The notes under the pieces: generated by a model
Told to the model about the DNA's origin: nothing
Databases searched by the model: none
What the model saw: only the letters and a program-made list of their open reading frames with translations
Made by a program: the position numbers and the translations under genes
Part shown: one piece after another, positions 1,250-43,258 of the stretch
Position numbering within the stretch: the first letter of the stretch is position 1
Layout: the number at the start of each line of letters is the position of its first letter
Source: a virus
Direction: 5' to 3' (one strand)
Virus genome (UHGV): UHGV-1382693
Length of the DNA stretch: 43,368 nucleotides

Positions 1250-1412
1250 TTCTCTTTCCTCCTTAATTGATTTTCCTAAAAATAGGTATAAAAAATACAG
1301 CTCCGCAAATATCTTGCAAAGCCGCCCCGAAGATGGTACAATATAGGTGCGAATTATAGTGCATATCTTCGGGTATGTAGGCCGGTTCCTGTTGGCGCAG
1401 GGGCCGGTTTTT

Positions 1413-1940
1413 TTATATACCATGAAACATCTGTTGTACTTGGTCTAATGCATTGTTCATTTCTGCAACTGCATTTTTATATGCCATGTATCTCCAGTAA
1501 ATGATTAAAGCATAAATGGCTATCACCATAATTGTAAAAATTATTCTATCAGCCAAAGAACGCTTTTTATAACACCATAACAATGCAAGTCCAAAGGGAG
1601 CAAAACAAAAAAATGTGAGTAACCCTATAAAAATATTTTTTTTATAGAATGGGTCTTGGTTGGAATCATGTTCTATGATATCTAAATCAGGATATTTTTC
1701 TTGAATATAATCAATTGCTCTTTGTATTGGCTCGTTACTTTTTTTTGAGAATGTAAAGCGCTTGGTTTTTCCGTATTGAAAATAAAAATCTATGTATCCC
1801 CCTTCTGTGGTAGAACGAAATTCATATTCTATCTTTTCAATATCCTCATACTTTATCTTTGACTTATTTCCAAAGATATCTATGATATTAGCTTCATCTT
1901 TTCCGATGTAAAGTTTGGCCCAATCTCCTTTAATGCTCAT
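1413..1940 (-). CDS. Membrane protein with N-terminal PH-like domain, paralog A
   Basis: AAGGAG RBS. Its N-terminal 90 aa are paralogous to the next gene (MSIKG..K.LFIGK.E.NI..FG.K...KIEY.F...NEPI.RA.DYI...PDL). Two C-terminal TM helices. AT-rich. Confidence 0.7.
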   Translation of the reverse strand: MSIKGDWAKLYIGKDEANIIDIFGNKSKIKYEDIEKIEYEFRSTTEGGYIDFYFQYGKTKRFTFSKKSNEPIQRAIDYIQEKYPDLDIIEHDSNQDPFYKKNIFIGLLTFFCFAPFGLALLWCYKKRSLADRIIFTIMVIAIYALIIYWRYMAYKNAVAEMNNALDQVQQMFHGI

Positions 1941-16110: not shown

Positions 16111-16398
16111 ATGGGGGATTGTATGAATCTCAATTCGATTATAAAAAAGCTACAGCGTGCCATATTGCAGACCAGACTTGTAATCAAGATATCCACCAAT
16201 CAATTCTATAGCGAGGAACAAGGGCGCATGATAACCATATGGATATTAAGCACCCCTGTGCTACAGCTGGATAAACATGGGGAGTGGAAGACAAGAGATT
16301 ATGAAATACTGCTGAGTGCATCGGGGATTGAGATTGTGAAGTGCTTGCAGGAGATATGGGAGGCGGTGAAGGGATGGGAACCATTGGAGAAAATATAA
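16111..16398 (+). CDS. Hypothetical protein
   Basis: 95-aa ORF. Confidence 0.45.
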   Translation: MGDCMNLNSIIKKLQRAILQTRLVIKISTNQFYSEEQGRMITIWILSTPVLQLDKHGEWKTRDYEILLSASGIEIVKCLQEIWEAVKGWEPLEKI

Positions 16399-17021
16399 TA
16401 TATTTCAGAAAAAAGCGACATTTAAGCCAATGCGAACTTGCAAAGCTTATGGGAGTTTCTCAAAACGCGGTATACGGATGGGAAAACAATAAAAGAAAAC
16501 CATCTATTGATATATTGAAAAAAATGTCAGAAATTTTGAGAATCACTTTATATGATATTGTAGAGGGAAATAAACCAATAGAAAAATCGACTTGCAATAT
16601 ATTTCCTGGAATTAAAGTTCCTGCAATAGATGGAAAAATAAGTATAGGAGATAATATCAAATTTTTGCGTAAGAGAAAAAATATGACGCAAAAGCAACTT
16701 TCAGAAGCTACGGGAATTGCTGTAATAACTATACAAGAGTATGAAGCTGGAAAATATGAACCTAAAATAGATTTTTTATACAAATTAGGAAAAGCTCTTG
16801 ATTGCGACATTTATAAATTAGCTGGTATTAACGAAAATATCAATTCACATGAAATAACGGTGAATGATGTTTTTAACGAAATCAAAAAGCGTGCAAAAGA
16901 GGCTGAAACAGAAGAATACGAAGCCAAGGAAAAAGGAGACTATTTAGATGCTATTGAGAGTAGGGGAGTCCATATAGCACTTATTGATATATTGAAAGAT
17001 TTTGGACAGGACGGTGGTTAA
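16377..17021 (+). CDS. Tandem-HTH (2 x XRE) DNA-binding regulator immediately upstream of terS
   Basis: Two HTH_3 units (LSQCELAKLMGVSQNAVYGWEN and MTQKQLSEATGIAVITIQEYEAG). AT-rich. Confidence 0.7.
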   Translation, partial: GTIGENIIYFRKKRHLSQCELAKLMGVSQNAVYGWENNKRKPSIDILKKMSEILRITLYDIVEGNKPIEKSTCNIFPGIKVPAIDGKISIGDNIKFLRKRKNMTQKQLSEATGIAVITIQEYEAGKYEPKIDFLYKLGKALDCDIYKLAGINENINSHEITVNDVFNEIKKRAKEAETEEYEAKEKGDYLDAIESRGVHIALIDILKDFGQDGG

Positions 17022-17420
17022 GTGGAGCTTACACCGAAGCAGAAAGCGTTTGCAGATTATTACATAGAATTCGGAAATGCGGCAGAAGCTGCGAGAAAGG
17101 CTGGTTATAGCTTACGGACAGCAGACGCAATAGGGCGTGAAAACTTACGGAAGCCTACGGTTTCTGCATATATATCTGAACGGCAGAAACAAATTGATGA
17201 TTGCCGCATAGCTGATGCGGCTGAAATACTGCAATACCTTACCTCTGTTATGCGCGGAGAAGTAAAAGACCAATTCGGACTTGATGCTCCGCTGGCAGAG
17301 AGGACCAAAGCGGCGGTGGAATTGGCAAAACGTAAAATAGATACAGACAAGAAGCAGGAGGGCGGCGGGATTACAATTGTCAACAACATACCAAGACCAG
17401 ACAACAATAAATCTGACTGA
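17022..17420 (+). CDS. terS: Terminase small subunit (P27 / Terminase_2 family)
   Basis: LTPKQKAFADYYIEFGNAAEAARKAGYS signature. GTG start. Confidence 0.85.
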   Translation: MELTPKQKAFADYYIEFGNAAEAARKAGYSLRTADAIGRENLRKPTVSAYISERQKQIDDCRIADAAEILQYLTSVMRGEVKDQFGLDAPLAERTKAAVELAKRKIDTDKKQEGGGITIVNNIPRPDNNKSD

Positions 17421-18636
17421 TGTAATCGCCCCTTCCTTCTATGGTGTTCACTGGGATATTATGGACGGAAAGCATACATATTATGACCTGTACGGAGGGA
17501 GAGGTTCCACGAAGTCCTCTTTCATATCTGTGGAGATTGTACTGGGTATGATGGATGACCAAGAGGCCAATGCTGTCATATTCCGAAAGTACGCTGTTAC
17601 AATTGGGGAATCAGTATTTGAGCAGATACAGTGGGCTATAGATGCGCTAGGCGTTACGGATTTATGGGAATCCCGTACAAGCCCATACCGATTTGTTTAT
17701 AAGCCGACAGGACAAAAGATAATATTCCGTGGACTTGACAAGGCGAAGAAAACAAAGTCAATTAAAGCTAGTAAGGGATACTTCAAATATTTGTGGTTTG
17801 AGGAACTGGACGAATTTGCAGGACCGGAAGAAATACGAACTGTTGAACAATCAGTGTTGCGCGGTGGAAGCAAGTTTGTTGTGTTTAAATCCTTCAACCC
17901 ACCCATCAGCCAAAGCAACTGGGCTAATCAGTATGTAAATACTCCAGACGATAGCGCGTATAGGCATAAAAGCGATTACCGTTCTGTACCGGTTGAATGG
18001 CTGGGAGAAATGTTTATTGAACGCGCAGAACATCTTAAAGCCACCAATGAGCGGGCATATAATCATGAGTATTTAGGCTTGCCGGTTGGACTTGGTACAA
18101 ATATATTTGATATGCTGGATGTACGGACAATCACAGACGAGGAAATCCAGAAATACCAAAGCATATATCAGGGGCAAGACTGGGGCTGGTTCCCGGACCC
18201 CAAAGCATTTATCCGGGCCGCTTACATACCAAACAAAGAATTGGTTGTGTTGCTTGATGAAATGGGCGGCTGTAAAATCCGTAATAGTAAGATGGCGGAG
18301 GATATACGGGCGGCTGGGTACGATGATTATACAATCTATTGTGGTGTGGATGAAGAAGAAAGCATTATAGACTTCCGTGACGCTGGTTTACCGGCACGCA
18401 GAGCCATTGTAACACCAGGAAGCAGGAAATACACCTTTGAGTGGTTGCAGTGCCGTACAATCGTTATAGACCCGGCACGCACACCGCAGGCATACAAAGA
18501 AATCATAGAATATGAGCATGAGGTTGACAGCAACGGTGAGGTGATATCGGATTACCCAGATGGAAATGACCACTGGATAGATGCACTCCGCTATGCCACA
18601 AGCCCATTATCCATGAGAAGGGGGAACAGCGCATAA
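17377..18636 (+). CDS. terL: Terminase large subunit (PBSX XtmB-like)
   Basis: Walker A YDLYGGRGSTKSS and a C-terminal nuclease region. The start is uncertain: TTG 17377 overlaps terS. Confidence 0.85.
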   Translation: MSTTYQDQTTINLTDVIAPSFYGVHWDIMDGKHTYYDLYGGRGSTKSSFISVEIVLGMMDDQEANAVIFRKYAVTIGESVFEQIQWAIDALGVTDLWESRTSPYRFVYKPTGQKIIFRGLDKAKKTKSIKASKGYFKYLWFEELDEFAGPEEIRTVEQSVLRGGSKFVVFKSFNPPISQSNWANQYVNTPDDSAYRHKSDYRSVPVEWLGEMFIERAEHLKATNERAYNHEYLGLPVGLGTNIFDMLDVRTITDEEIQKYQSIYQGQDWGWFPDPKAFIRAAYIPNKELVVLLDEMGGCKIRNSKMAEDIRAAGYDDYTIYCGVDEEESIIDFRDAGLPARRAIVTPGSRKYTFEWLQCRTIVIDPARTPQAYKEIIEYEHEVDSNGEVISDYPDGNDHWIDALRYATSPLSMRRGNSA

Positions 18637-18950: not shown

Positions 18951-20378
18951 ATGGGACTAATAACATGGGCTAAAAAGGTGATAGGAATGATATTCAAGCG
19001 ACAGGCAGAAGAAGATTTCAACGTTGAATCAGTGGTATCCCCGGAGATGGAAAGCAAGATTGCAGAGTGCGCCAATATCTACCGGGGTATTCCCTATTGG
19101 GTGAATGCTGACGATAACGTTAAGACAATCAATTTTGCAAAGGCCATATGCTCAGAGACGGCCCGACTTGCTACCCTGGCAATCGGAATACAGATTGATG
19201 GGAGTGCGCGGGCGGCGTGGCTCCAGGAGCAGATTGACAAGATATATTTCCAGATTCGCCACTGGGTAGAGTATGGTATGGCCTACGGCACAATCATCCT
19301 TAAGCCCAATGGAAAGGGACTGGACATATTCACACCGATGGACTTTATTATTACGGATTGTGACAATGAAGGTATCTATGGGATTGTATTCAAGGATAGC
19401 TACAGCGAAAATGATAAGTATTATACCCGGTTTGAGTATCATCGGTTTGTCGAGGTCAAGGAGGGGGAAAACACCTATTACCCATATTACATATCCAATA
19501 GAGCTTATGTGTCTCAGTCTGCAAAAAGTGTGGGGGACCCGATAGCATTAAACAGGACTAAGTGGTCTGACTTACTTCCAGATACACCGCCTATACTCAA
19601 GGCTAACAATGATAAAATAGACGGCCCCATGTTTGGTGTACTCCGCACTCCACAGGCTAACAATTTGGATATCTCATCACCTTTGGGATTGCCAATGTTT
19701 GCCGAGGCCATAGAAGAATTAAAGGACCTGGATGTGGCATATAGCCGGAATGTAGGTGAAATATTTGACAGTGAGAAAATCATATTAATTGATGACCAAT
19801 TAATGCTTGGTGATGGAACTAATTTAAAACGTCCAGGAGTAAATAAAGTTAAATTACCACATTATGTAAGAAATGTATTTGGAAATAGTAATGGGGAATT
19901 TTACCATGAGATTAATCCATCATTAAATACTGATACCAGAATAACCGGAATTAATAACTTACTTTCTTTCCTGGGATTTAAGTGTGGATATTCCAACGGA
20001 TATTTTGTGCTTGATGAAAAAACAGGTATGGTCACAGCAACACAGGTAGAAGCTGATGACCGCCGCACTATCCAGTTAATTAAGGATGTGCGCGACAAAC
20101 TGGAAAGTTGCCTTGATGGCGCAATATATGCGCTCAATGTATATGCTGACCTGTACGGACTGGCACCCGCCGGCAACTACGAAATCACATATGATTTTGG
20201 GGACATTACATACAATCGTGAAGAGGACAGAGCAAGATGGTGGCAGTATGTTGTGCAGGGGAAGGTACCACCCTGGATGTATTTCCAGAAGTTTGAAGGG
20301 TTATCCGAGGAAGATGCAAAGGCTATGGTACAGGAAGCACAACCGAAGGATGGGCCGAGGATGTTTGAGGAGGAATAA
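18951..20378 (+). CDS. Portal protein
   Basis: 475 aa directly after terL, with portal-like conserved regions. Confidence 0.8.
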   Translation: MGLITWAKKVIGMIFKRQAEEDFNVESVVSPEMESKIAECANIYRGIPYWVNADDNVKTINFAKAICSETARLATLAIGIQIDGSARAAWLQEQIDKIYFQIRHWVEYGMAYGTIILKPNGKGLDIFTPMDFIITDCDNEGIYGIVFKDSYSENDKYYTRFEYHRFVEVKEGENTYYPYYISNRAYVSQSAKSVGDPIALNRTKWSDLLPDTPPILKANNDKIDGPMFGVLRTPQANNLDISSPLGLPMFAEAIEELKDLDVAYSRNVGEIFDSEKIILIDDQLMLGDGTNLKRPGVNKVKLPHYVRNVFGNSNGEFYHEINPSLNTDTRITGINNLLSFLGFKCGYSNGYFVLDEKTGMVTATQVEADDRRTIQLIKDVRDKLESCLDGAIYALNVYADLYGLAPAGNYEITYDFGDITYNREEDRARWWQYVVQGKVPPWMYFQKFEGLSEEDAKAMVQEAQPKDGPRMFEEE

Positions 20379-20484: not shown

Positions 20485-21717
20485 ATGTTAAGCCCTGATT
20501 ACCTTGCAAGAATCGCAGAAGGAAGCGAAGAAATAGCCTCACAACTCCATACATACATTATTCGTCAGATAATAGACCGCATGATGATACGCATAGGCCG
20601 CGGCGATGATTGCCTGCTCACCTCATCTGACCGATGGCGCATACATGTATTGCAGGACGCAGGGTATCTGCTGGAGGATATAACAGCAGAGTTATCCAAG
20701 TACACCAAGAGGCAGGAGAAAGAGATTAAAGCGGCTATGGAGGAGGCCGGGATAAAAGCTCTGGAATACGACCACAGAATATACGAGGCCGCCGGCCTGT
20801 CTCCTATGCCCCTGACGCAATCCCCGGCCCTTATTCGGCTGATGGAACGCAATTACCTGGCAACATTAGGGGAATGGAAAAACTACACTAGGACAACCGC
20901 GCAATCTGCTCAAAGATTATTTATTAACGAGTGCGATATGGCCTATAACAAAGTTATGAGTGGAGCAACATCTTACACACAAGCAGTTAAAGAGGCCGTA
21001 GAAAATGTGGCCAGTGGGGGTATTACACTTGTTCAATATAGAAGTAAAAATACTGGAGATATAAGAAATGACACGATAGAGACAGCTACAGCACGAGCGG
21101 TACGGACTGGTATAGCACAGGCTACGGCGGAAATTACGCTGGCAAGAATGGTAGAAATGAAGTGGGAAGTTGTGCTGGTGTCGGCGCATGTGGGCGCAAG
21201 AAATGTTGGGGGGATACCAGAGAATCATGAACTTTGGCAAGGAAAATTCTACAGTCTCCCGCAATATGGACATAGATTCCCGGATTTCTATTACTCTACA
21301 GGATATGGAGATATTACTGGATTGTGCGGAGTAAATTGTAGGCATAGTTTTGGACCAGGTGATGGAGAAAATAATCCGTATGACCCAATAGACACAGAGG
21401 AAAATCGAAATCAGTACGAAAAAGAGCAACGCCAGCGAACGCTTGAACGCCGCATCCGCAAGACCAAGCGCGAGGTTATGGGCCTGCAAGAGGCCGTAGA
21501 GAAATGCCAGGACAAGGCGGCAAAGTTTGAGCTACAGCAGGCGCTTGACCGGAAATCCTACTTGCTATCCAAGCAGTATAAGGCATATAACGAGTTTTGT
21601 AAGGAGAATAACCTTAGAACTCAGTCAGAGAGATTACAGATTGCCCGCTGGAGCCGTGAACAGGCTGCAAAGGCCAGAGGGGCGGCGAGACGGTATCAAA
21701 ATGCGAAAGGGGAATGA
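20485..21717 (+). CDS. Head morphogenesis protein (SPP1 gp7 / Mu F-like minor capsid protein)
   Basis: Sits after the portal gene. MuF-like central region. C-terminal coiled coil. Confidence 0.7.
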   Translation: MLSPDYLARIAEGSEEIASQLHTYIIRQIIDRMMIRIGRGDDCLLTSSDRWRIHVLQDAGYLLEDITAELSKYTKRQEKEIKAAMEEAGIKALEYDHRIYEAAGLSPMPLTQSPALIRLMERNYLATLGEWKNYTRTTAQSAQRLFINECDMAYNKVMSGATSYTQAVKEAVENVASGGITLVQYRSKNTGDIRNDTIETATARAVRTGIAQATAEITLARMVEMKWEVVLVSAHVGARNVGGIPENHELWQGKFYSLPQYGHRFPDFYYSTGYGDITGLCGVNCRHSFGPGDGENNPYDPIDTEENRNQYEKEQRQRTLERRIRKTKREVMGLQEAVEKCQDKAAKFELQQALDRKSYLLSKQYKAYNEFCKENNLRTQSERLQIARWSREQAAKARGAARRYQNAKGE

Positions 21718-22103
21718 ATTTGAATAGATGGAAACCATATAACCCTAACCCAGTCCGTAATCAGCGTGTAGGCGACTGTGCCATACGTGCAATCTGCAAA
21801 GCAACCGGACAGGATTGGGAAACCGCCTTTGCTGGCGTTATGGTGGTGGCGTGCGAGAAATCAGATATGCCGTCAGCTAACAGCGTGTGGGGGACATATC
21901 TCAGGCGCAACGGGTTTCGGAGAAACATTATACCAGACGAATATCCAGAAGATTATACCGTGGAAGAATTTTCGGCAGACCACCAAAACGGAGTATTTGT
22001 TCTTGGGCTTGATGGTCATGTGGTAACGGTTGTGGATGGATTTTACTGGGACACATGGGACAGCGGTCAAGAAATACCAATATACTACTGGGAAAGGCGA
22101 TAA
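21714..22103 (+). CDS. Papain-like (C39 / BtrH-like) cysteine-peptidase-fold protein
   Basis: GDCAIRAI carries the candidate catalytic Cys, and DGHVVTVVDG the downstream His/Asp. ATGA-coupled to MuF. Confidence 0.4.
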   Translation: MNLNRWKPYNPNPVRNQRVGDCAIRAICKATGQDWETAFAGVMVVACEKSDMPSANSVWGTYLRRNGFRRNIIPDEYPEDYTVEEFSADHQNGVFVLGLDGHVVTVVDGFYWDTWDSGQEIPIYYWERR

Positions 22104-22106
22104 TTT

Positions 22107-22400
22107 ATGGAAACATTAAACTCTATTATGGTTGTATGCGGTTGGCTTATTACTCTTGGAGGCGCAGGAGCCGTAATATACAAATTGTTGCATCCGGCAT
22201 TTAAGCTAAAAAATCGAGTGGATAAATTAGAAATAAATGTGGAAAATGATTATAAATCTATCAAAGAAATAAGAGATATGCAATCTCTTTTATGCCAAGG
22301 AATGATAGCATTAATTGATAATCGTATAACCGGTAACAACATAGAGGGTTTAAAAAAAACCAAAGAAGCTATGATAAAGCATTTGTCAGAAGGTATTTAA
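22107..22400 (+). CDS. Small membrane protein (N-terminal TM + coiled coil)
   Basis: TM segment IMVVCGWLITLGGAGAVIY. AT-rich. Confidence 0.55.
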   Translation: METLNSIMVVCGWLITLGGAGAVIYKLLHPAFKLKNRVDKLEINVENDYKSIKEIRDMQSLLCQGMIALIDNRITGNNIEGLKKTKEAMIKHLSEGI

Positions 22401-22411
22401 GGAGCGTTGCG

Positions 22412-22612
22412 TTGAAGGTATATGACTTTACAGTGCCAGAACTAAACTATTTTCGTACATATTGTAACTTTACGGATGAAGAACGGGCACTGTTTGAGTA
22501 CCGGGCCAAGAACTATCCTTTGGAGTATTGCGCTGAATTAATGAATGTAAGTGTATCCACAGCAAAGAGATTGAGCAGAAAAGTAAACAACAAAATAATC
22601 CGATTATGTTGA
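22412..22612 (+). CDS. Sigma-70 region-4-only HTH protein
   Basis: LEYCAELMNVSVSTAKRLSRKVNNKI looks like region 4.2. AAGGAG RBS. TTG start. Confidence 0.6.
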   Translation: MKVYDFTVPELNYFRTYCNFTDEERALFEYRAKNYPLEYCAELMNVSVSTAKRLSRKVNNKIIRLC

Positions 22613-22636
22613 TACTTGCGTGATACTTTTATAAGT

Positions 22637-22666
22637 CTTTGACGACCTGTCAAGGGCTTATTTTTT
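22637..22666 (+). terminator. Intrinsic terminator
   Basis: CTTTGAC-gacct-GTCAAGG stem followed by gcttatttttta. Confidence 0.55.
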
Positions 22667-22704
22667 ATGGGATAATTGGATTATAAAAGAACGGAGGGGA
22701 TATA

Positions 22705-23175
22705 ATGCCGCAACCATTTATCAATCCAAACTATCTGAATACATATCCAAACGCATATCCTTATCAGCCACAGATGCAACCACCTATGGACCGATTGCAG
22801 CAGCTACAGGCACCATACCAAATGTCGCAACAGACGCAGGTTTCACAGGTCCCGCAGACCAACCAGGGAATATTATGGGTGCAGGGTGAAGCCGGGGCAA
22901 AGTCGTATTTAGTAGCGCCAAGCACATCCATATTACTGATGGATAGCGAAAATGAGTACTTTTATATTAAAACAACAGATGCAGCAGGTATGCCAACACT
23001 CCGCACTTTTGAATATAAAGAGATTGTTAATGGACGGAAAAAGGAATCTACATCGGCTGAAAATCTGGATGAAAAGTATGTTACCAGAAATGAGTATCAG
23101 GATTTAAAGGCAAAATATGATGAATTATATGGACTTTTAGAAACCAGTACAGCACCAACAGGAAAGGGGAAGTAA
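22705..23175 (+). CDS. P/Q-rich N-terminal protein with conserved C-terminal domain
   Basis: GGAGGGG RBS. N-terminal PQPFINPNYLNTYPNAYPYQPQMQPP. Confidence 0.65.
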   Translation: MPQPFINPNYLNTYPNAYPYQPQMQPPMDRLQQLQAPYQMSQQTQVSQVPQTNQGILWVQGEAGAKSYLVAPSTSILLMDSENEYFYIKTTDAAGMPTLRTFEYKEIVNGRKKESTSAENLDEKYVTRNEYQDLKAKYDELYGLLETSTAPTGKGK

Positions 23176-23178
23176 TAT

Positions 23179-23436
23179 ATGAATCCATTATTTAACATGT
23201 TAGGTGGAATGGGTGGAGGTAGCCCAATGGGAGGAATGATTCCTGGGATGGGCGGAGGAAACAACCCCATGCAGATGATACAGAAATTTATGGAGTTTAA
23301 AAACAATTTCAAGGGAAACCCTCAAGAAGAAGTACAGAAGATGCTACAGTCCGGCCAGATAACTCAGCGGCAATTAGACCAGGCCCAGCAAATGGCCCGG
23401 CAGTTTCAGCAGATGCTTAATGGCATGAAAAAATAG
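23179..23436 (+). CDS. Gly/Met-rich small protein
   Basis: GGMGGGSPMGGMIPGMGGGNNPMQM. AAGGGG RBS. Confidence 0.6.
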   Translation: MNPLFNMLGGMGGGSPMGGMIPGMGGGNNPMQMIQKFMEFKNNFKGNPQEEVQKMLQSGQITQRQLDQAQQMARQFQQMLNGMKK

Positions 23437-23490
23437 TACATAAATCAATGCGCATGATTTTGTAAATATATTTTAAAGGAGTAGACAATT

Positions 23491-24207
23491 ATGGATTCAA
23501 GCTATAGTTTAGCAGACATTGCCGCCGCTACAGGAGGAACAAACCGCAACAATGATGGCTTTGGAGATGGCGGCGCATGGTGGATTATTATACTGTTCTT
23601 ATTTGTTTTCTGTGGCTGGGGCAATGGAAACGGCTTTGGAAACAATGGAGCAGGAGGTGCAGGATTGCAGGGATTAGCAACACGTGCAGACATCAATGAG
23701 GGATTTGCCCTCAACGGAATCGAAAATGGTATAAGGGGTATTCAGCAGGGCATTTGTGATAGCACGTATGCGCTGAACAACACCATTACCAGCGGTTTCA
23801 GCGGAGTGGACCGTAGCTTATGCCAGATGGGCTATCAGCTCCATGATTGCTGTTGCCAGACACAGCGCGCAATTGATGGTGTAAATTATAACCTGGCTAC
23901 ACAGTCATGCGATACCAGAAACACCATTCAGACCGCAACTAGGGATATTCTGGACAACAACAACAGCAATACAAGAGCTATTCTTGACTTCTTAACTCAG
24001 GATAAGATTTCTACCTTACAGGCGGAGAATCAAACCCTTAGATTCCAGGCAAGCCAGACTGCCCAGAACGGATTTATTGATGCAGTTGGTAACTCAATCG
24101 TTGCACAGCTTCGTCAGCCGCAGCCTGTACCGGCTTATACGGTTCCAGCGCCATATCCATATGCCTCTAACTGTGGTTGTGGATGCAATACTGGATGCGG
24201 GTGCTAA
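23491..24207 (+). CDS. Membrane protein with Gly-rich region and Cys-rich C-terminus
   Basis: AAAGGAG RBS. TM segment WWIIILFLFVFCGW flanked by G/N-rich sequence. Ends CGCGCNTGCGC. Confidence 0.7.
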   Translation: MDSSYSLADIAAATGGTNRNNDGFGDGGAWWIIILFLFVFCGWGNGNGFGNNGAGGAGLQGLATRADINEGFALNGIENGIRGIQQGICDSTYALNNTITSGFSGVDRSLCQMGYQLHDCCCQTQRAIDGVNYNLATQSCDTRNTIQTATRDILDNNNSNTRAILDFLTQDKISTLQAENQTLRFQASQTAQNGFIDAVGNSIVAQLRQPQPVPAYTVPAPYPYASNCGCGCNTGCGC

Positions 24208-24416
24208 TGAGAAACGAACAGTTTTACGATAATCTTGCTCTGTATGCAACTGCATTGCAAATGATAAATTTGCTTTTGATTGTTGGTGATGTGTCAAATA
24301 ATGATATTATGGAAGCATTGCAACAGGAGAATAAGGAATACATGGAAAAGATTATCGACCAAAACAACCGCATATTGCGTATCTTGTCCGAAAAGGACAT
24401 GTCTACTGAACAGTAG
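24207..24416 (+). CDS. Small hypothetical protein
   Basis: TAATG coupling. 69 aa. Confidence 0.45.
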   Translation: MRNEQFYDNLALYATALQMINLLLIVGDVSNNDIMEALQQENKEYMEKIIDQNNRILRILSEKDMSTEQ

Positions 24417-24478
24417 TATTACACACATGGAAGGGTAGGCATAAGCTTGCCCTTCTGTGCATATAAGGAGGATTTATT

Positions 24479-24877
24479 ATGGCAGATTTTGTAACTGCTG
24501 GGACACAGACTGTTGCAGTCAATGCAAGCGTTCTGTTTGCTGCAAACAGGATATATTCTTGCAATTGTCCAAACATAAGGCATGAGGCACTCTCTGGTAG
24601 GGTAGTTTTGCTTCCTGGCCTGTACCGCGTAGGATTTAACGGAAACTTTTCCGCAGCCGCAGCAGGTGACGTTATTTTTGAAGTACAGCAGGACGGCGAA
24701 GGCATTCCCGGTGCAAGAATTCAGAACACAGTTGCCGCCGGCGCAACAATCAATGGAGCGGCAACTGTAGAAGTAAGGGTGTGCAAACCATGTTGTGCTA
24801 CCCTATCAGTAAAAAACGTTGGAGCCACAGCAGCGGCAGTATCAGACGCTAACCTTGTTGTTAGCAGAATAGGTTAA
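24479..24877 (+). CDS. Ala/Gly/Val-rich beta-rich protein with Cys pairs (structural subunit-like)
   Basis: AAGGAGG RBS. SCNCPN near the N-terminus and CKPCC near the C-terminus. Confidence 0.7.
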   Translation: MADFVTAGTQTVAVNASVLFAANRIYSCNCPNIRHEALSGRVVLLPGLYRVGFNGNFSAAAAGDVIFEVQQDGEGIPGARIQNTVAAGATINGAATVEVRVCKPCCATLSVKNVGATAAAVSDANLVVSRIG

Positions 24878-24889
24878 GGGGGTAAGGCT

Positions 24890-25429
24890 ATGAGCTATAA
24901 GATGATGCAGAATATCCATGAAGAACTGGATAAGATTGCGGAAAAGGGCCTGAACACTAGCAACCTTGAAACCGCATACAAACTGATAGACATGTGGAAA
25001 GACATGGAGAATGTGGAGTACTGGAAGTGCAAAAAAGAGTACTACAATCAGGTAATGGACGAAATGGATGGCGGAGAATACAGCGAAGCGCGCCGCAAAC
25101 GCGACAGCATGGGACGTTATAGCCGTGCTGATGGAATGTCACAGGACTATGATAATGACAGCTCATATCGCGGCACACGCGGAAAACATTACGTCAGAGG
25201 ACACTACAGCCGTGCGACCGGTCCGGCCTATGATGACTACATGAATCAGAAGCAGAGCTACAGAAGTGGTGGAAAAGATGAGGATTGCAAGCGGCGTATG
25301 CTTGCGGCCTTAGAGGAACATATGGACGAACTAACCGAAGAGTTGGGAGAAATGTCAAAAGATGCTGATTGCCGCGAGGAACGGGAAACCATGAAAAGAT
25401 ATATCGAAAAGTTGCGTAATATGATGTAA
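24890..25429 (+). CDS. Charged helical protein, hypothetical
   Basis: AGGGGG RBS. Several Cys residues. Helical heptad-like N- and C-terminal regions. Confidence 0.65.
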   Translation: MSYKMMQNIHEELDKIAEKGLNTSNLETAYKLIDMWKDMENVEYWKCKKEYYNQVMDEMDGGEYSEARRKRDSMGRYSRADGMSQDYDNDSSYRGTRGKHYVRGHYSRATGPAYDDYMNQKQSYRSGGKDEDCKRRMLAALEEHMDELTEELGEMSKDADCREERETMKRYIEKLRNMM

Positions 25430-25498: not shown

Positions 25499-25789
25499 TT
25501 AAATATGATTCCAATCTAACATAATATGGATTTCTTTTTCTTCATTATTGATTGCACATAGACAGGGTGATTCTTTCCCTTGAATCAGCTCGTTTGGTGT
25601 ATAAGTCCAACCCCACGGAGCCGTCAACACAATGCCGGCCTCTGTCTCGTCACATCCCCATCCTTCTGGCACTGTGTATTCTATTGGTTCGCTTTCTACT
25701 GCTGTTGGATGAGGATTGCCCTCAGTAAATACCGGATGTTTCTCAGCAGCCAAACATCCATAATTTATGTATCCTTTAAATGTTTTCAT
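25499..25789 (-). CDS. Hypothetical protein (last gene of reverse operon)
   Basis: AGGAGGAG RBS 7 nt upstream. 96 aa with WGxxE and WGW motifs. Confidence 0.6.
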   Translation of the reverse strand: MKTFKGYINYGCLAAEKHPVFTEGNPHPTAVESEPIEYTVPEGWGCDETEAGIVLTAPWGWTYTPNELIQGKESPCLCAINNEEKEIHIMLDWNHI

Positions 25790-25801
25790 TTTTTCTCCTC
25801 C

Positions 25802-26218
25802 TTACAATATGGTTTCATGTACCTCGCGCCCTGCCCGCACATTTTCCAGGTAATTGGGGTCTATGCTCTTTGGACAGTACTCATAATCGCTGTCCTCAAC
25901 TCCTATTTTTGCCATTTCGTCATGTATAATTTTAAAATAATCATCATGAGAAAAGTTGCGGGAATCAGAAAATACATTGTAATTTTCCGGTAACAATTTC
26001 TCATAGGCCAAATCTGAAAAATTATTTAAAAGTTTTTTCATCAGACATGGATGAATCAGTTCTTCCAATTGTCTGATGATTAATTCTTCGGCCCAGGGAG
26101 CCGGGTTCCGTTTCCCAGCCTCCCAATCCTCTATGGTCCTTGTTGGTATACCAAGGTAATCAGATAAATCAGATTGTGTCATGTTGGTTTTCGTACGGTA
26201 CTCTTTAATTCTGTTCAT
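25802..26218 (-). CDS. XRE-family HTH regulator with C-terminal domain
   Basis: MTQSDLSDYLGIPTRTIEDWEAGKRNP HTH. AAGGAGG RBS before ATG 26218. Confidence 0.75.
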   Translation of the reverse strand: MNRIKEYRTKTNMTQSDLSDYLGIPTRTIEDWEAGKRNPAPWAEELIIRQLEELIHPCLMKKLLNNFSDLAYEKLLPENYNVFSDSRNFSHDDYFKIIHDEMAKIGVEDSDYEYCPKSIDPNYLENVRAGREVHETIL

Positions 26219-26228
26219 AACGACCTCC

Positions 26229-26540
26229 TTATTTAACATGTTGTATGATGTATTTGGCATCTGTCATTTTTTCTAACTGACCGATAAGGCTTTCAATTCC
26301 GGCCGTGTAACTCTGCGCATCCATCTTACCCCTGGACATCATTATTCCGGCCATCTCGTCTGTCTTAAAAACCTTCTGGACCAGAATATCTTTTGCATAT
26401 GCCACCTGTTTCTCAGTTCCGGTCATTTCCTGGGTAAACATAAAAGCAATGATTTTATGGCAGTCGGCCCGGTCTACCAGGATATTATATCCGTTCAGCT
26501 CGTTTCTCATTTCCTTTGTATTCTCTGCTCGTCTCATCAT
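26229..26540 (-). CDS. Hypothetical protein (first gene of reverse operon)
   Basis: 103 aa. RBS-like AAGGATGGGGG. Upstream promoter with operator. Confidence 0.55.
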   Translation of the reverse strand: MMRRAENTKEMRNELNGYNILVDRADCHKIIAFMFTQEMTGTEKQVAYAKDILVQKVFKTDEMAGIMMSRGKMDAQSYTAGIESLIGQLEKMTDAKYIIQHVK

Positions 26541-26574
26541 TTTTTATTTCCCCCATCCTTTATCTTATGTATTT

Positions 26575-26604
26575 ATTTTACCACGCATTGCGTGGCGTGT
26601 CAAG
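26575..26604 (-). promoter_or_regulatory. Promoter of reverse operon with palindromic operator in the spacer
   Basis: On the - strand: TTGACA(26603-26598)-17 nt-TAAAAT(26580-26575). The spacer holds CCACGCA-T-TGCGTGG (26581-26595). Confidence 0.6.
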
Positions 26605-26685: not shown

Positions 26686-26871
26686 ATGGTAAAAAACGGT
26701 TGGGTATACTGCCCTATATGTAACAATAAGACCAGGACAAAAATTCGGCCTGATACAGTAGCGAAAAACCTTCCGGTATTTTGCCCTGTATGCAAGAATA
26801 CATCCATAATGAATATTGCAAAAGGAATAGCAAGTGATATGGAAAATGGCGGTTTATCACCTGCCACATAA
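26686..26871 (+). CDS. Com-like Cys4 zinc-ribbon protein
   Basis: CPICNNK...17 aa...CPVCKNTSIM parallels the phage Mu Com zinc ribbon. Confidence 0.5.
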   Translation: MVKNGWVYCPICNNKTRTKIRPDTVAKNLPVFCPVCKNTSIMNIAKGIASDMENGGLSPAT

Positions 26872-26874
26872 TAA

Positions 26875-26940
26875 TTAGAGCCAGACGCCAGACGCAGAGC
26901 CAAACAGATTACAGCAATGTAGTTTGTTTGGCTTTTTCTT
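26875..26940 (+). terminator. Terminator-like hairpin carrying a conserved 26-nt motif (copy 1)
   Basis: TAGAGCCAGACGCCAGACGCAGAGCC then AGCCAAACA...TGTTTGGCT stem plus tttttctt. Confidence 0.5.
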
Positions 26941-27139
26941 ATATTTGACCTCCCTCCTATAGCACATGTCCTTAAAAGAAACAGGTTCTAGCGCATAGCG
27001 TGAACAGCCTGGAGGTTGAAAAGCGGATGCAATTTCCGGCATGTGCGTTTTTGGACAAGTCAAGTCCTACAAAATGGCAACCGTTGGTGGACGGTTACAC
27101 ACCTACAAATAACCTAATAACGGAAAAGGAGAATCATCA

Positions 27140-27757
27140 ATGAAAACCGAAGAATTAAAAGCGCAGGGATTGACAGAGGAACAGATATCTTTTGTCATGG
27201 CTGAAAATGGAAAAGACCTTAAAAAGTTGCAGAAAGAAAATGACAATCTGACATCCGAACGGGATACCTGGAAAGAAAAAGCAGAAGCAGCAGAAACAAC
27301 GCTGAAAGGCTTTGAAGGGGTTGACCTTGAGACGATGCAGAAAGAACTGTCTGACTGGAAACAAAAGGCAGCAGATGCAGAAAAGAATGCCCAGGAACAG
27401 CTCTATGAGCGTGATTTTTCGGACGCTCTGAAAACGGAATTTGAGGGTATTAAGTTTTCTAGCGAAGCGGCTAAGCGTGCAATTATGGCAGAAGTCAAGG
27501 CAGCCGGATTAAAACTTAAAGATGGTAAAATCCTGGGGCTGAATGACCTTTTGTCCCAAATGAAAGAAAAGGACGCTTCGGCATTTATTGATGATGCGCA
27601 GCAACAGGAACAGCAGAACATGGCGAGATTTACGGCGCCGATAAAAGGAACGACCGGAGGAGCGCTGACAAAATCAGATTTTAAGGGTATGAGCCTGGAT
27701 GCAAAAATTGAATTAAAACAGAAAAATCCAGAACTTTACAACAATTTGAAAGGATAA
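27140..27757 (+). CDS. Scaffolding protein (Phage_GP20-like)
   Basis: MKTEELKAQGLTEEQISFVMAENGKDLKKLQ. Helical, charged. Precedes the major capsid gene. Confidence 0.75.
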   Translation: MKTEELKAQGLTEEQISFVMAENGKDLKKLQKENDNLTSERDTWKEKAEAAETTLKGFEGVDLETMQKELSDWKQKAADAEKNAQEQLYERDFSDALKTEFEGIKFSSEAAKRAIMAEVKAAGLKLKDGKILGLNDLLSQMKEKDASAFIDDAQQQEQQNMARFTAPIKGTTGGALTKSDFKGMSLDAKIELKQKNPELYNNLKG

Positions 27758-27763
27758 TGAATT

Positions 27764-28783
27764 ATGCCAAGAACAGGAACATTCGGAGGGTTTGCATTTG
27801 ACCCGGAAGTATTTGCTGATTACATGGCGGAGCAGCCTACATGGAGCAATGCAATTATCGCCTCGGGCATATTGCAGCAGGATAGCACCATTATGAACCT
27901 TATCGGGTCCGAAGGTAATGTTGCAACACTTCCATTTTACAAAGCAATGGACATTACGGATTACGAACCATATAACAATGATGGAAACACAAATAACACC
28001 CCGAAGGAGATTAGCGGCGGGAAGCAGACTACCATGCTGATACAGAGAATGATGGCATGGAAAGCACAGGATTTTACACAGGAGCTTACCGGGGCTGACC
28101 CGATGCAGCATATTGCAAACAGCGTTACCGATTACTATCGTCAGGTTTGGGAAGCAGAACTCATGAATATTGTAAACGCGGTCATGAAACTTGATACAAT
28201 TAAGGACCATGTTTATGACATTTCGCTTTCTGATGATAGTAGTGTTGCAGATGCCAATAAGATTGATGAAACAACCATGATTTATGCACAGCAGAAAGCA
28301 CTCGGCGACATGGCTAATGGGTTTGGAATTGCAATCATGAACTCACTCATATTTGCGAGATACCAGGCTATGGGGATGGTGAACTACAATAAGTACACAA
28401 TCCAGAATGCATTGACATCAGAAGTCAACCTCCCGACAATTAACGGTCTTATCCCGGTAGTGTCAGACCGATTTACGGTTGATACCAGTGGAGAAGTCCC
28501 GAAATACATAACTACAATCGTGGGACAGGGAGCTATACTGACAGCTGAAAAGACCAATTACAAGGAACCTTACTACGCGGATTATGACGCGGAGACTAAG
28601 GCTGGTATTGAAAAACTGTATACCAAGGAAGGGCGCGTGCTGCATCCGAACGGCTTCAATCTCAAGGTTGCAAGCATTGCTGGGGAATCCCCGACCAAGA
28701 CGGAACTTGGAAACAAGGCTAACTGGGAGCTTGCATACAAGGCAAAGAACATCCGTATCGGTCAGATTATTTCCAACGGATAA
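27764..28783 (+). CDS. Major capsid protein
   Basis: 339 aa after the scaffold. MPRTGTFGGFAFDPEVFADYM N-terminus. Confidence 0.8.
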   Translation: MPRTGTFGGFAFDPEVFADYMAEQPTWSNAIIASGILQQDSTIMNLIGSEGNVATLPFYKAMDITDYEPYNNDGNTNNTPKEISGGKQTTMLIQRMMAWKAQDFTQELTGADPMQHIANSVTDYYRQVWEAELMNIVNAVMKLDTIKDHVYDISLSDDSSVADANKIDETTMIYAQQKALGDMANGFGIAIMNSLIFARYQAMGMVNYNKYTIQNALTSEVNLPTINGLIPVVSDRFTVDTSGEVPKYITTIVGQGAILTAEKTNYKEPYYADYDAETKAGIEKLYTKEGRVLHPNGFNLKVASIAGESPTKTELGNKANWELAYKAKNIRIGQIISNG

Positions 28784-42389: not shown

Positions 42390-42515
42390 ATGTATACAAC
42401 GTTAAAAAGATTATATAACAATGGTAAAGGTCCATTAACTATTGATGAGCTTAACCGGGCTGTATTACTTGGATGGATTACAGAGCAACAGAAGAACAGC
42501 ATAATTGGAGGATGA
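42390..42515 (+). CDS. XkdX-family small protein
   Basis: MYTTLKRLYNNGKGPLTIDELNRAVLLGWITEQQKNSI matches the XkdX pattern. GGAGGTG RBS. Confidence 0.6.
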   Translation: MYTTLKRLYNNGKGPLTIDELNRAVLLGWITEQQKNSIIGG

Positions 42516-42517
42516 TT

Positions 42518-43258
42518 ATGAGAGATATCACATTGTGCCATCCACGTTTGCAGCTTTTAGCAGGTCAATTGGTGGATGAATGTAATAAACAGGGATTAAA
42601 AATTAAGATAGGCGAAACTCTGCGTACTGTAGCAGAGCAGGATGATTTATATGCCCAGGGCAGGACTAAACCGGGCAACATTGTAACTAATGCGCCCGGT
42701 AGCAGCTATAGCTCCTATCATCAGTGGGGGACTGCTTTTGATATCTTTCGCAATGATGGGACCGGAGCTTACAACGAATCTGATGGTTTTTTTAACCGTG
42801 TAGGTGCTATTGGTGTATCTCTTGGCCTGGAGTGGGGAGGAAATTGGAAATCCATTATGGACAAGCCACATTTTCAGCTTCCAGATTGGGGGAGCAGCAC
42901 ATCTGGAATTAAAAAGCTTTACCGTACACCGGATGAATTTATGAAAACCTGGGTGACAGAGGAACGCACTGGCTGGATTAAGGACAATAACGGCTGGTGG
43001 TACCGCAGACCAGATGGAACTTACCCGGCTAATAAGTGGTGTATCATAAATCACCATTGGTACTTATTTAATAAGGATGGTTATGCTTGCACGAGCTGGC
43101 ACCGCTGGAATGGCAGCACATGTGACCCGGTTGACGGTTCGGGAGATTGGTATTACTTTGACCCGACACCAAACGGACCGTTTGAGGGAGCCTGCTGGCA
43201 TAGTCAGGATAATGGGGCGCTGGAAATCTGGTACATAGAGGATTCTAACTCAATATAA
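42518..43258 (+). CDS. Endolysin: M15 (VanY-like) peptidase + C-terminal cell-wall-binding repeats
   Basis: SYHQWGTAFD and DKPHFQL resemble M15 zinc-peptidase motifs. The C-terminus carries GW..DNNGWWY-type repeats. GGAGG RBS. Confidence 0.8.
   Translation: MRDITLCHPRLQLLAGQLVDECNKQGLKIKIGETLRTVAEQDDLYAQGRTKPGNIVTNAPGSSYSSYHQWGTAFDIFRNDGTGAYNESDGFFNRVGAIGVSLGLEWGGNWKSIMDKPHFQLPDWGSSTSGIKKLYRTPDEFMKTWVTEERTGWIKDNNGWWYRRPDGTYPANKWCIINHHWYLFNKDGYACTSWHRWNGSTCDPVDGSGDWYYFDPTPNGPFEGACWHSQDNGALEIWYIEDSNSI

What the first reader, a model, noticed from the sequence alone, without database searches (positions are those of the whole stretch)
22412..22666. Sigma-70 region-4-only protein followed by an intrinsic terminator inside the structural module
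A 66-aa protein consisting only of a region 4.2-like HTH cannot act as a sigma factor. It could act as a -35-binding transcription factor or an anti-sigma decoy. Its own terminator makes it a discrete transcription unit that may control the downstream cassette or host genes.
Basis: partly seen in the sequence, partly recalled or inferred. Interest (0 to 1): 0.55.

Follow-up and report, generated by a model that had tools for sequence, protein, structure and literature searches.

The report
Mini sigma-region-4 regulator with its operator
A conserved 66-residue DNA-binding protein in the head-gene block of a gut Clostridia prophage probably switches on the neighbouring gene cassette by binding short phased repeats that start at its own stop codon; it is a shrunken, relocated version of a known kind of phage late-gene activator.

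Summary
ORF 22412-22612 (TTG start, good RBS) encodes a 66-aa four-helix HTH that resembles sigma-70 region 4. It is followed by a hairpin plus T-run at 22631-22666 that compensatory changes in relatives support.

It is not a gene fragment. More than 100 close protein clusters (83 exactly 66 aa), 462 clusters at 50% identity and more than 500 IMG/VR contigs carry it, with dN/dS about 0.16. It almost always sits between the minor head protein and a conserved cassette (p156, p85, p238, p132, p179) upstream of scaffold and capsid.

It is not a discrete transcription unit. It starts 11 nt after the upstream gene and has no promoter of its own, so it is the last cistron of the packaging/head operon.

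New finding: its TGA stop begins an array of 11-bp-phased direct repeats (TGATACTTnnn). The array runs into the hairpin and an extended -10 promoter (CTGTCA-N18-TGnGATAAT) for the cassette. The array stays with that promoter when genes are inserted, keeps register with the -10, and its repeat sequence changes along with the protein's recognition helix.

The layout (gene, 7-nt repeats, terminator, promoter) matches the RinA/ArpU/Ltr late activators. This protein is half their size, shows no detectable sequence homology to them, and targets an internal cassette rather than terS.

Verdict: a probable minimal Ltr-like activator and a new variant of a known kind. Binding and activation are inferred, not shown.

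The parts
22399..22404 (+). Ribosome-binding site AAGGAG, 7 nt upstream of the TTG start. It overlaps the TAA stop (22398-22400) of the upstream membrane-protein gene.
   Evidence: Read from the sequence. The ~11-12-nt gap to the upstream gene is kept in relatives.
22412..22612 (+). HTH66 gene: a 66-aa, basic (pI 8.9), four-helix sigma-70 region-4-like HTH protein. H3 is residues 37-43 and the recognition helix H4 is residues 48-65.
22610..22653 (+). Array of four 11-bp-phased direct repeat units: TGATACTTGCG | TGATACTTTTA | TAAGTCTTTGA | CGACCTGTCAA. Unit 1 begins with the TGA stop of HTH66 and unit 4 overlaps the -35 position. This is the proposed operator for HTH66.
   Evidence: The array occurs only once in the window.
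22631..22666 (+). Intrinsic-terminator-like hairpin: 13-bp stem (22631-22643 pairing with 22649-22661), 5-nt loop, then a T-run. It ends the upstream packaging/head operon.
22647..22676 (+). Promoter of the downstream cassette: weak -35-like CTGTCA (22647-22652), 18-nt spacer, extended -10 TG-G-GATAAT (22668-22676). The expected transcription start is near 22683.
   Evidence: The element is conserved in relatives, with the CTGT-to--10 offset fixed at 24 nt in 49 distinct arrays.
22705..25429 (+). Presumed target operon: p156 (22705-23175), p85 (23179-23436), p238 (23491-24207), p79 (24177-24416), p132 (24479-24877, a homolog has a weak BclA_C hit) and p179 (24890-25429). All are of unknown function and are conserved with HTH66 across the phage lineage.
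22107..22400 (+). Upstream 97-aa protein with an N-terminal membrane helix and no family match. It directly precedes HTH66 in most, but not all, relatives.

Best explanation
HTH66 is a stand-alone DNA-binding domain of the sigma-70 region-4 type that acts as a local transcription regulator, most likely an activator.

Proposed sequence of events:
1. HTH66 is translated as the last cistron of the first late operon (terS, terL, portal, minor head, p129, membrane protein, HTH66).
2. That operon's transcript ends at the hairpin and T-run at 22631-22666.
3. The protein binds, probably as several head-to-tail copies on one face of the DNA, to the 11-bp-phased direct repeats. These start at its own stop codon (22610) and run to the -35 position (22653).
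4. From there it helps host RNA polymerase use the adjacent promoter, which has a good extended -10 but a poor -35.
5. This switches on the conserved cassette p156-p179, and possibly the capsid genes beyond it.

Shown here:
- The gene is real and conserved.
- The fold is region-4-like.
- The hairpin is under structural selection.
- The repeat array, hairpin and promoter form a conserved composite that stays with the cassette.
- The repeat sequence and the recognition helix differ together between lineages.

Inferred: that HTH66 is the protein that binds the repeats, that it activates rather than represses, and how far the transcript runs.
For: The gene is real.
- 112 close clusters, 83 of them exactly 66 aa.
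- 462 clusters at 50% identity with E<=1e-3, mostly 60-90 aa.
- At least 515 IMG/VR stretches.
- Median dN/dS is 0.16.

Fold and sequence point to sigma region 4. The recognition helix is among the conserved parts.

Synteny is conserved. The order minor head, p129, (membrane protein), HTH66, p156, p85, p238, (p132), p179, scaffold holds in 80 viral loci and about 30 genome loci from Lachnospiraceae and Oscillospiraceae. It holds even at 40-50% HTH identity.

The regulatory composite is conserved.
- Upstream of p156 in 113 loci there are phased repeats, then a hairpin, then an extended -10. This is so even where p156 is only ~30% identical.
- The core TGATACTTTT at about -60 carries 1-2 bits per position, while the spacers between units are near 0.
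- The register to the -10 is the same in hairpin-containing and hairpin-less lineages.
- Of 168 distinct neighbourhoods, 89 have the composite within 60 nt of the HTH stop. Another 55 have it behind inserted genes but still directly upstream of p156.

Repeats and recognition helix change together.
- Helix SVSTAKRLSRK goes with GATACTTT.
- Helix RS[VI]DSVK[QA]LS goes with AACACTTT in all 3-4 units (L104, L106, L109, L113, L210). The sister loci L101 and L103, with helix PTVKRIS, keep GATACTTT.
- Helix CSISTV[YCN]RVNKSMKKK goes with GA[TC]AG(G)TTTT.
- Helix HCEMTT[AV]KKIS goes with ATATACTTT.

A 58%-identical homolog in a different context, next to the integrase, has the same gene, phased repeats, hairpin and extended -10 layout.

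[quoted passage not shown] There the repeats are necessary and sufficient for specific binding (PMC3753634; PMC3152322).
Against: - There is no binding or expression data.
- The gene and the array are adjacent, so joint change can partly reflect shared descent. Only about 3-4 independent switches were seen.
- The correspondence is imperfect. L131 and L164 have GACACTT with a K-R helix.
- The repeats are T-tract-rich at helical phasing. They could instead be intrinsically curved, UP-like DNA, or a host-factor site.
- A promoter with an extended -10 may not need an activator.
- The array occurs only once in the 43-kb phage, so there is no second site to corroborate a motif.
- Ltr proteins have an extra N-terminal half that HTH66 lacks.
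- hhalign against phage 37 LtrA gives 0.3% probability.
- 24 of 168 neighbourhoods lack this form of the composite.
Confidence: 0.55

Rival explanations
1. HTH66 binds the same site but with the opposite sign. It would repress or time the cassette promoter by occluding the -35 region, or act as a roadblock or autoregulator at the end of its own operon.
For: Unit 4 of the array and the hairpin arm overlap the -35-like hexamer. The promoter has an extended -10, which can work without an activator.
Against: The -35 is poor and is conserved as poor (CTGTCA, CTGTTA or CTGTTG). Upstream phased sites at about -49, -60 and -71 are typical of activators. The experimentally studied systems with the same layout are activators (PMC3753634).
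Confidence: 0.15
2. The repeats are not HTH66's site. They would be curved, UP-like DNA or the site of a host or other phage protein, and HTH66 would act elsewhere, on host promoters or on another phage site.
For: The units are CTTT(T) tracts spaced 11 bp apart. The link between repeat type and helix is imperfect (L131, L164). Linkage alone makes adjacent features change together.
Against: Non-T positions (G, A, A, C of GATAC) are conserved and change in concert in all units of a locus. The array begins at the HTH66 stop codon in 89 of 168 neighbourhoods. No other DNA-binding protein is conserved in the module; the XRE genes come and go.
Confidence: 0.15
3. HTH66 is a region-4 mimic that works through protein contacts. 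It could bind the beta-flap or an anti-sigma factor, or displace or replace region 4 of the host sigma. This covers the first reader's 'decoy' idea and a sigma-appropriation-like mechanism.
For: The fold and HMM affinity are to sigma region 4 rather than LuxR. The most invariant residues (F6, T7, E10, L11, R15, N19, F20) lie in helix 1 and the H1-H2 loop, not in the recognition helix. Three far relatives carry a membrane helix fused in frame upstream of the domain, and a membrane-protein gene lies directly upstream here, which recalls sigma/anti-sigma pairs.
Against: No partner was identified. The membrane protein is absent from many relatives that keep HTH66. The recognition helix is conserved and basic. 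The adjacent repeat array needs a reader. The fused ORFs may be gene-calling artefacts.
Confidence: 0.08
4. HTH66 has a non-transcriptional DNA-binding role in head assembly or packaging, for example as an accessory to portal, terminase or minor head protein, given its place in the head module.
For: It is always encoded just after the minor head protein and p129.
Against: TerS is separately present. A homolog sits outside any head module with the same repeat, terminator and promoter layout. The fold is that of transcription factors.
Confidence: 0.04
5. HTH66 is the C-terminal remnant of a disrupted sigma or Ltr gene.
For: It matches only the C-terminal part of phrog_1190 (positions 110-155 of 167).
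Against: The 66-aa length and start position are conserved in 83 of 112 close clusters and most of the distant ones. It has a strong RBS and dN/dS of 0.16. The upstream ORF is in another frame and encodes an unrelated membrane protein. The longer family members carry junk or membrane-helix extensions, not region 2.
Confidence: 0.01

Closest known systems
Ltr superfamily of phage late activators (RinA, ArpU, LtrA/Sigma70_r4, LtrB/DUF1492, LtrC; Quiles-Puchalt et al. 2013, PMC3753634; Ferrer et al. 2011, PMC3152322)
   Same: Both are basic phage proteins whose DNA-reading part resembles sigma region 4. In both, 7-nt direct repeats lie immediately distal to the activator's coding sequence, followed by a terminator for the activator gene and then the promoter of the controlled operon. 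In both, repeat sequence and reading domain differ together between phages.
   Different: HTH66 is 66 aa rather than about 130 aa and has no N-terminal half. It is not upstream of terS but at the end of the packaging/head operon. Its target is an internal cassette of unknown function. No HMM or profile similarity to ArpU, RinA, DUF1492 or phage 37 LtrA was found. Activation is untested.
Sigma-70 region 4 (for example sigmaE region 4 on -35 DNA, PDB 2h27; ECF sigma factors)
   Same: The four-helix fold is the same, with an HTH recognition helix. Family members hit Pfam Sigma70_r4 and r4_2. One repeat unit lies at the -35 position.
   Different: There is no region 2, so it cannot open promoters or serve as a sigma. 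The window protein scores below Pfam's gathering cut-off. The proposed sites are several phased direct repeats, not a single -35 hexamer.
PhoB/OmpR-type activation at pho boxes (own knowledge)
   Same: Both use 7-bp direct repeats with an 11-bp period that replace a poor -35 next to a good -10, with an activator bound head-to-tail.
   Different: The DNA-binding fold is different (winged helix). PhoB has a receiver domain and is controlled by phosphorylation. There is no homology.
GerE and other stand-alone LuxR-type HTH proteins (own knowledge for GerE)
   Same: Both are about 70-aa single-domain four-helix HTH transcription factors. LuxR-type domains are among the fold matches.
   Different: Only 1 of 40 family members hits Pfam GerE at E<=0.01. 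GerE-type proteins bind as dimers to inverted or paired sites, whereas here the sites are direct repeats.
TP901-1 Alt late activator (cited in PMC3753634)
   Same: It is a phage activator that binds a repeat-containing region upstream of a late promoter.
   Different: The protein family is unrelated, and it acts upstream of terS. It was not compared here.

Membership tests
Sigma-70 family sigma factor | Region 2 (core binding and -10 recognition) | tested here: not met
   The protein is 66 aa and matches only region 4. No Sigma70_r2 hit was found in the 36 other window proteins scanned with Pfam.
Sigma-70 family sigma factor | Region 4 HTH (Pfam Sigma70_r4 / r4_2 at gathering score) | tested here: inconclusive
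   The window protein scores 15.8 bits against a cut-off of 25.7. Of 40 relatives, 23 hit r4_2 at E<=0.01, best 4.5e-7. The fold matches sigmaE and sigmaH region 4 with probability 0.9-0.98 but Foldseek E-values of at least 0.24.
Ltr superfamily (RinA/ArpU/LtrA-C) | Basic protein of about 130 aa | tested here: not met
   The protein is basic (pI 8.86) but only 66 aa. The family length is 60-90 aa.
Ltr superfamily (RinA/ArpU/LtrA-C) | Gene located just upstream of terS | tested here: not met
   terS is at 17022-17420. HTH66 lies 5 kb downstream, after the minor head protein. The gene upstream of terS is a double XRE-HTH protein.
Ltr superfamily (RinA/ArpU/LtrA-C) | Region-4-like DNA-reading domain | tested here: met
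   AF2 model plus fold searches. Pfam hits of family members.
Ltr superfamily (RinA/ArpU/LtrA-C) | Direct repeats of about 7 nt immediately distal to the activator's coding sequence | tested here: met
   TGATACT units lie at 22610 and 22621, with degenerate units at 22632 and 22643. They are conserved and phased in relatives.
Ltr superfamily (RinA/ArpU/LtrA-C) | Terminator between the activator gene and the controlled promoter | tested here: met
   Predicted hairpin plus T-run with compensatory changes. It is prediction only, and is absent in some lineages.
Ltr superfamily (RinA/ArpU/LtrA-C) | Detectable sequence or profile homology to a member family | tested here: not met
   No ArpU, RinA or DUF1492 hit in Pfam at E<=10 or NCBIfam at E<=1. 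hhalign against phage 37 LtrA gives probability 0.3%. LtrA falls in phrog_36, whereas HTH66 touches phrog_1190.
Ltr superfamily (RinA/ArpU/LtrA-C) | Binds the repeats and activates the downstream promoter | not testable with these tools
   This needs EMSA or footprinting and reporter assays. The only indirect support is the joint change of repeats and recognition helix.
LuxR/GerE-type stand-alone HTH | Pfam GerE (PF00196) match | tested here: not met
   There is no GerE hit for the window protein. Only 1 of 40 relatives hits at E<=0.01.
Intrinsic (factor-independent) terminator | G+C-containing stem-loop followed by a U-run, with the structure conserved | tested here: met
   13-bp stem with 4 G-C pairs plus T6. 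z = -2.96. 8 of 13 pairs have compensatory changes. Termination itself is not testable here.

The most novel reading that the evidence does not exclude
HTH66 could be a free-standing 'region 4 module'. Bound at the repeat that overlaps the -35 position, and at the phased repeats upstream, it would take over the job of host sigmaA region 4 at an extended -10 promoter. It would do this by contacting the beta-flap or sigma directly. That would be a one-protein form of sigma appropriation, or a split sigma, common in gut Clostridia phages.

A second untested novelty is that the cassette it controls may be a conserved non-virion function. The cassette contains a Q/P-rich protein, a Gly/Met-rich protein, a Cys-rich membrane protein and a protein with a weak BclA_C-like hit.
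Probability: 0.1. Interest if true: 0.8.

Novelty: new variant of a known kind. Interest (0 to 1): 0.45.

Why it matters
Small 'ECF sigma factor' or 'sigma-70 region 4' proteins of 65-85 aa are annotated in large numbers in phage metagenomes, yet none has an assigned role.

This locus gives one such family a concrete, testable model: a defined operator (11-bp-phased GATACTTT repeats), a defined promoter, a defined target operon, and natural specificity variants that predict swap experiments.

If confirmed, three things follow:
- The region-4-like domain alone would be sufficient for Ltr-type activation.
- The Ltr logic would extend from terS promoters to a second, internal late promoter.
- It would give a handle on a cassette of six unknown genes conserved between the minor head and scaffold genes in hundreds of Lachnospiraceae and Oscillospiraceae phages.

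It would also provide a compact, orthogonal activator/operator set for Clostridia genetics.

Tried and rejected
- **Fragment of a disrupted gene.** Rejected on conserved length, RBS, dN/dS and the unrelated upstream ORF.
- **Profile of the family against PDB sequences.** Nothing meaningful. The top hit is a designed repeat protein built from HTH-like repeats.
- **The hairpin core TTTGACGAnCTGTCA as a palindromic operator repeated elsewhere.** It has one copy in the window and no enrichment. Its conservation is explained by stem pairing plus the embedded -35 and repeat unit.
- **More copies of the GATACTT array in the window.** None found beyond chance.
- **A region-2-only partner (split sigma) or a canonical RinA/ArpU gene upstream of terS.** None found.
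- **Sequence link to LtrA of phage 37.** None.
- **Annotated homologs in GenBank phages.** Only 5 unannotated faecal metagenome records.
- **Identity of the cassette proteins.** No Pfam, NCBIfam or PDB-sequence hits. 608 homologs of p156 carry no names. The AF2 model of p156 is too poor (pLDDT 57) for a fold search.
- **Membrane-helix/HTH fusions in far relatives.** Noted, but they cannot be told apart from gene-calling artefacts without their DNA.
- **Literature search for this family or this phage group.** Nothing specific.

Full report
**What is there**

The window is a complete, roughly 43-kb temperate siphophage or prophage. It starts with an integrase at 179-1423 (minus strand) and ends with a lysin-like gene at 42473-43258.

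The late region reads as follows:
- terS 17022-17420 and terL 17377-18636;
- portal 18951-20378;
- minor head protein 20485-21717;
- p129 21714-22103;
- a 97-aa protein with an N-terminal membrane helix, 22107-22400;
- the ORF of the finding, 22412-22612;
- six genes of unknown function, 22705-25429;
- three reverse-strand genes including an XRE regulator;
- a Cys_rich_KTR-like ORF;
- scaffold 27140-27757 and major capsid 27764-28783.

The ORF starts with TTG, 7 nt after an AAGGAG that overlaps the stop of the upstream gene. It encodes 66 residues.

**Is the protein real and region-4-like?**

A search of 5.8 billion proteins gave 112 clusters at 54-97% identity, 83 of them exactly 66 aa. A profile search of 1.84 billion representatives gave 462 clusters at E<=1e-3, and 112 of the best 149 are 60-90 aa. 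IMG/VR holds at least 515 encoding stretches. Median dN/dS among 99 distinct 66-codon genes is 0.16.

The longer 'homologs' carry junk extensions, an in-frame membrane helix, or a deletion chimera. None carries a sigma region 2. The gene is therefore a conserved stand-alone protein, not a fragment.

The window protein is below Pfam's cut-off for Sigma70_r4_2 (E 0.011). However, 23 of 40 relatives hit r4_2 and 20 of 40 hit r4 at E<=0.01, against 1 of 40 for GerE. AF2 gives a confident four-helix model with pLDDT 96.9. Its best solved-structure matches are YlxM/UPF0122, sigmaE and sigmaH region 4, and LuxR-type domains. BFVD shows many 65-85-aa phage proteins of the same fold, auto-labelled 'ECF sigma factor'.

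Hosts of related prophages are Lachnospiraceae (Blautia, Dorea, Enterocloster, Coprococcus, Agathobacter and others) and Oscillospiraceae.

**The terminator**

The hairpin at 22631-22661 plus T-run is found by the scan. It folds at -18.5 kcal/mol, z = -2.96. In 25 distinct relatives, 8 of 13 stem pairs show compensatory changes and 91.7% of cells pair, against 32-54% with slid partners. It is a selected structure.

It is not 'the protein's own' terminator, however. When one or more genes are inserted after HTH66, the hairpin stays directly upstream of the p156 homolog. A few lineages lack it altogether.

HTH66 itself has no promoter-like site. It follows the upstream gene by 11 nt in a string of overlapping or abutting genes that begins at terS. 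It is the last cistron of that operon, not a discrete unit.

**What else is in the intergenic region**

I aligned the 170 nt upstream of p156 homologs in 113 loci. This revealed a composite that is conserved even where p156 is only about 30% identical.

In the window it reads, in 11-nt units: TGATACTTGCG | TGATACTTTTA | TAAGTCTTTGA | CGACCTGTCAA | GGGCTTATTTT | TTATGGGATAAT, spanning 22610-22676. Its features are:
- Unit 1 begins with the TGA stop of HTH66.
- Units 3-5 form the hairpin and T-run.
- Unit 4 carries the -35-like CTGTCA.
- The last unit carries an extended -10, TG-G-GATAAT.

Over 49 distinct arrays, the unit at about -60 (TGATACTTTT) has 0.9-2.0 bits at each of its ten positions, with the one spacer position at 0.1. 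The -49 unit keeps A..CTTT.A. The distance from CTGT to the -10 is fixed at 24 nt.

Lineages without the hairpin (L101, L103, L104, L106, L109, L113) have four or five clean repeats in the same register to TGAGATAAT. Of 168 distinct HTH66 neighbourhoods, 89 have the composite within 60 nt of the stop and 55 have it behind inserted DNA. The array occurs once in the window.

**Link between the protein and the repeats**

Repeat type and recognition helix differ together:

| Recognition helix | Repeat type | Loci |
|---|---|---|
| ...SVSTAKRLSRK... | GATACTTT | majority, including the window |
| RS[VI]DSVK[QA]LS | AACACTTT in all units | L104, L106, L109, L113, L210 |
| PTVKRIS | GATACTTT retained | L101, L103 (sister loci of the row above) |
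| CSISTV[YCN]RVNKSMKKK | GA[TC]AG(G)TTTT | L117, L118, L120, L124, L125 |
| HCEMTT[AV]KKIS | ATATACTTT | L097, L102, L115 |

The same base changes in every unit of a locus. This concerted change argues for a common sequence-specific reader.

A 58%-identical homolog beside an integrase, outside any head module, is again followed by two phased repeats, a hairpin, a T-run and an extended -10.

There are caveats. The gene and the site are linked. Only 3-4 independent switches were seen. L131 and L164 combine GACACTT with a K-R helix.

**Comparison with what is known**

The layout is that of the Ltr late activators of Gram-positive phages (RinA, ArpU, LtrA, LtrB, LtrC). These are:
- basic proteins of about 130 aa encoded just upstream of terS;
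- followed by a terminator and then the terS promoter.

In those systems the repeats are necessary and sufficient for specific activation, and repeat and C-terminus differ together between phages (PMC3753634; PMC3152322).

HTH66 shares the reading-domain type, basic charge (pI 8.9), repeats, terminator and promoter order. It differs in four ways:
- Size: 66 aa, with no N-terminal half.
- Position: the end of the packaging/head operon.
- Target: an internal cassette rather than terS.
- Sequence: no ArpU, RinA or DUF1492 HMM hit, hhalign against phage 37 LtrA at 0.3%, and a different PHROG.

The window has no recognisable Ltr gene upstream of terS, where a double XRE-HTH gene sits instead. I therefore file it as working like an Ltr activator but not as a demonstrated member.

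**Mechanism proposed**

1. Late operon 1 (terS to HTH66) is transcribed and ends at the hairpin.
2. HTH66 accumulates and binds the phased repeats on one face of the helix, from about -71 to -38.
3. It recruits or stabilises RNA polymerase on a promoter with a good extended -10 and a poor -35.
4. The cassette is switched on.

The anatomy and conservation are shown. Binding, sign of regulation and transcript extent are inferred.

Rivals, with my estimates:
- Repression from the same site (0.15).
- Repeats are curved DNA or a host-factor site, and HTH66 acts elsewhere (0.15).
- A region-4 mimic acting on RNA polymerase or an anti-sigma-like membrane partner (0.08).
- A packaging role (0.04).
- A gene remnant (0.01).

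**Verdict**

The 'discrete transcription unit' and 'decoy' ideas are not supported. The protein is a conserved core gene of a large gut-phage lineage, and most likely a minimal, relocated analogue of the known Ltr activators. It is a new variant of a known kind and of moderate interest. Its main value is a precise, cheap-to-test operator, promoter and regulator prediction for a very common class of unannotated 'sigma region 4' mini-proteins.

Noticed in passing
window 26961-27047 and 27053-27116 (+); L008 13341-13496; L098 9663-9800; L090 8972-9043; L104 9134-9207; L118 9753-9828; L120 9977-10047: Two Rfam motifs of unknown function, RAGATH-21 (83.5 bits) and GP20-b (40.9 bits), lie directly upstream of the scaffold gene. 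In relatives, a tRNA or a tRNA-like element with an aberrant 2-nt 'anticodon' takes the place of RAGATH-21. This suggests an RNA-processing punctuation site between the cassette and the capsid genes.
   Followed up: partly
window 22705-25429; homologs in L001-L120: A cassette of six genes of unknown function (phrog_21718, 22984, 16490, 20016 and two more) is conserved between the minor head and scaffold genes across Lachnospiraceae and Oscillospiraceae phages. p156 has a Q/P/Y-rich disordered N-terminus and a small beta domain. p85 is Gly/Met-rich. p238 has a membrane helix and a Cys-rich tail (CGCGCNTGCGC). A p132 homolog has a weak BclA_C hit.
   Followed up: partly
between the HTH66 stop and the repeat/hairpin composite, e.g. 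L001 6202-6430, L002 2581-3140, L029-L057: This junction is an insertion hot spot. Between 0 and about 1.5 kb of unrelated genes, often including a reverse-strand XRE HTH gene, are inserted here in different relatives. A GATACTT-like unit is often left on both sides.
   Followed up: partly
window 25499-26603 (-): There is a reverse-strand trio (103 aa, 152-aa XRE HTH_3 protein, 96 aa). It is driven by a near-consensus promoter, TTGACA-17-TAAAAT with TG, at 26603-26575, and converges on the cassette. Relatives carry an XRE gene at other places in the module.
   Followed up: no
window 26686-26871 (+) and 26896-26935: A small Cys_rich_KTR-like zinc-ribbon ORF (61 aa; named by the Pfam hit of its homolog in L001) is followed by a strong predicted terminator with an 18-bp stem.
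   Followed up: no
window 21714-22103 (+): By eye, p129 (phrog_3754) has a papain-like pattern: Q17..C22, then GHVV and D.WDS. It is as conserved next to HTH66 as the cassette is. It has no Pfam hit, and only a short 36.7-bit match to a designed protein in the PDB.
   Followed up: no
proteins P0129, P0157, P0227, P0209: Three far relatives have a membrane helix fused in frame upstream of the HTH domain. The window has a membrane-protein gene directly upstream of HTH66. P0209 is a chimera of the HTH N-terminus with the C-terminus of p179, which implies deletion of the whole cassette.
   Followed up: no
L100 6001-6210 and 7228-7434: One Lachnospiraceae prophage carries two paralogs of the HTH gene. 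The first is followed by a terminator and a consensus promoter without repeats. The second is followed by the usual repeat/hairpin/promoter composite and p156.
   Followed up: no
window 16341-17021 (+): The gene directly upstream of terS, where RinA/ArpU-type activators normally sit, is a 226-aa protein with two XRE-type HTH domains. No Ltr-type gene was found in the window.
   Followed up: partly
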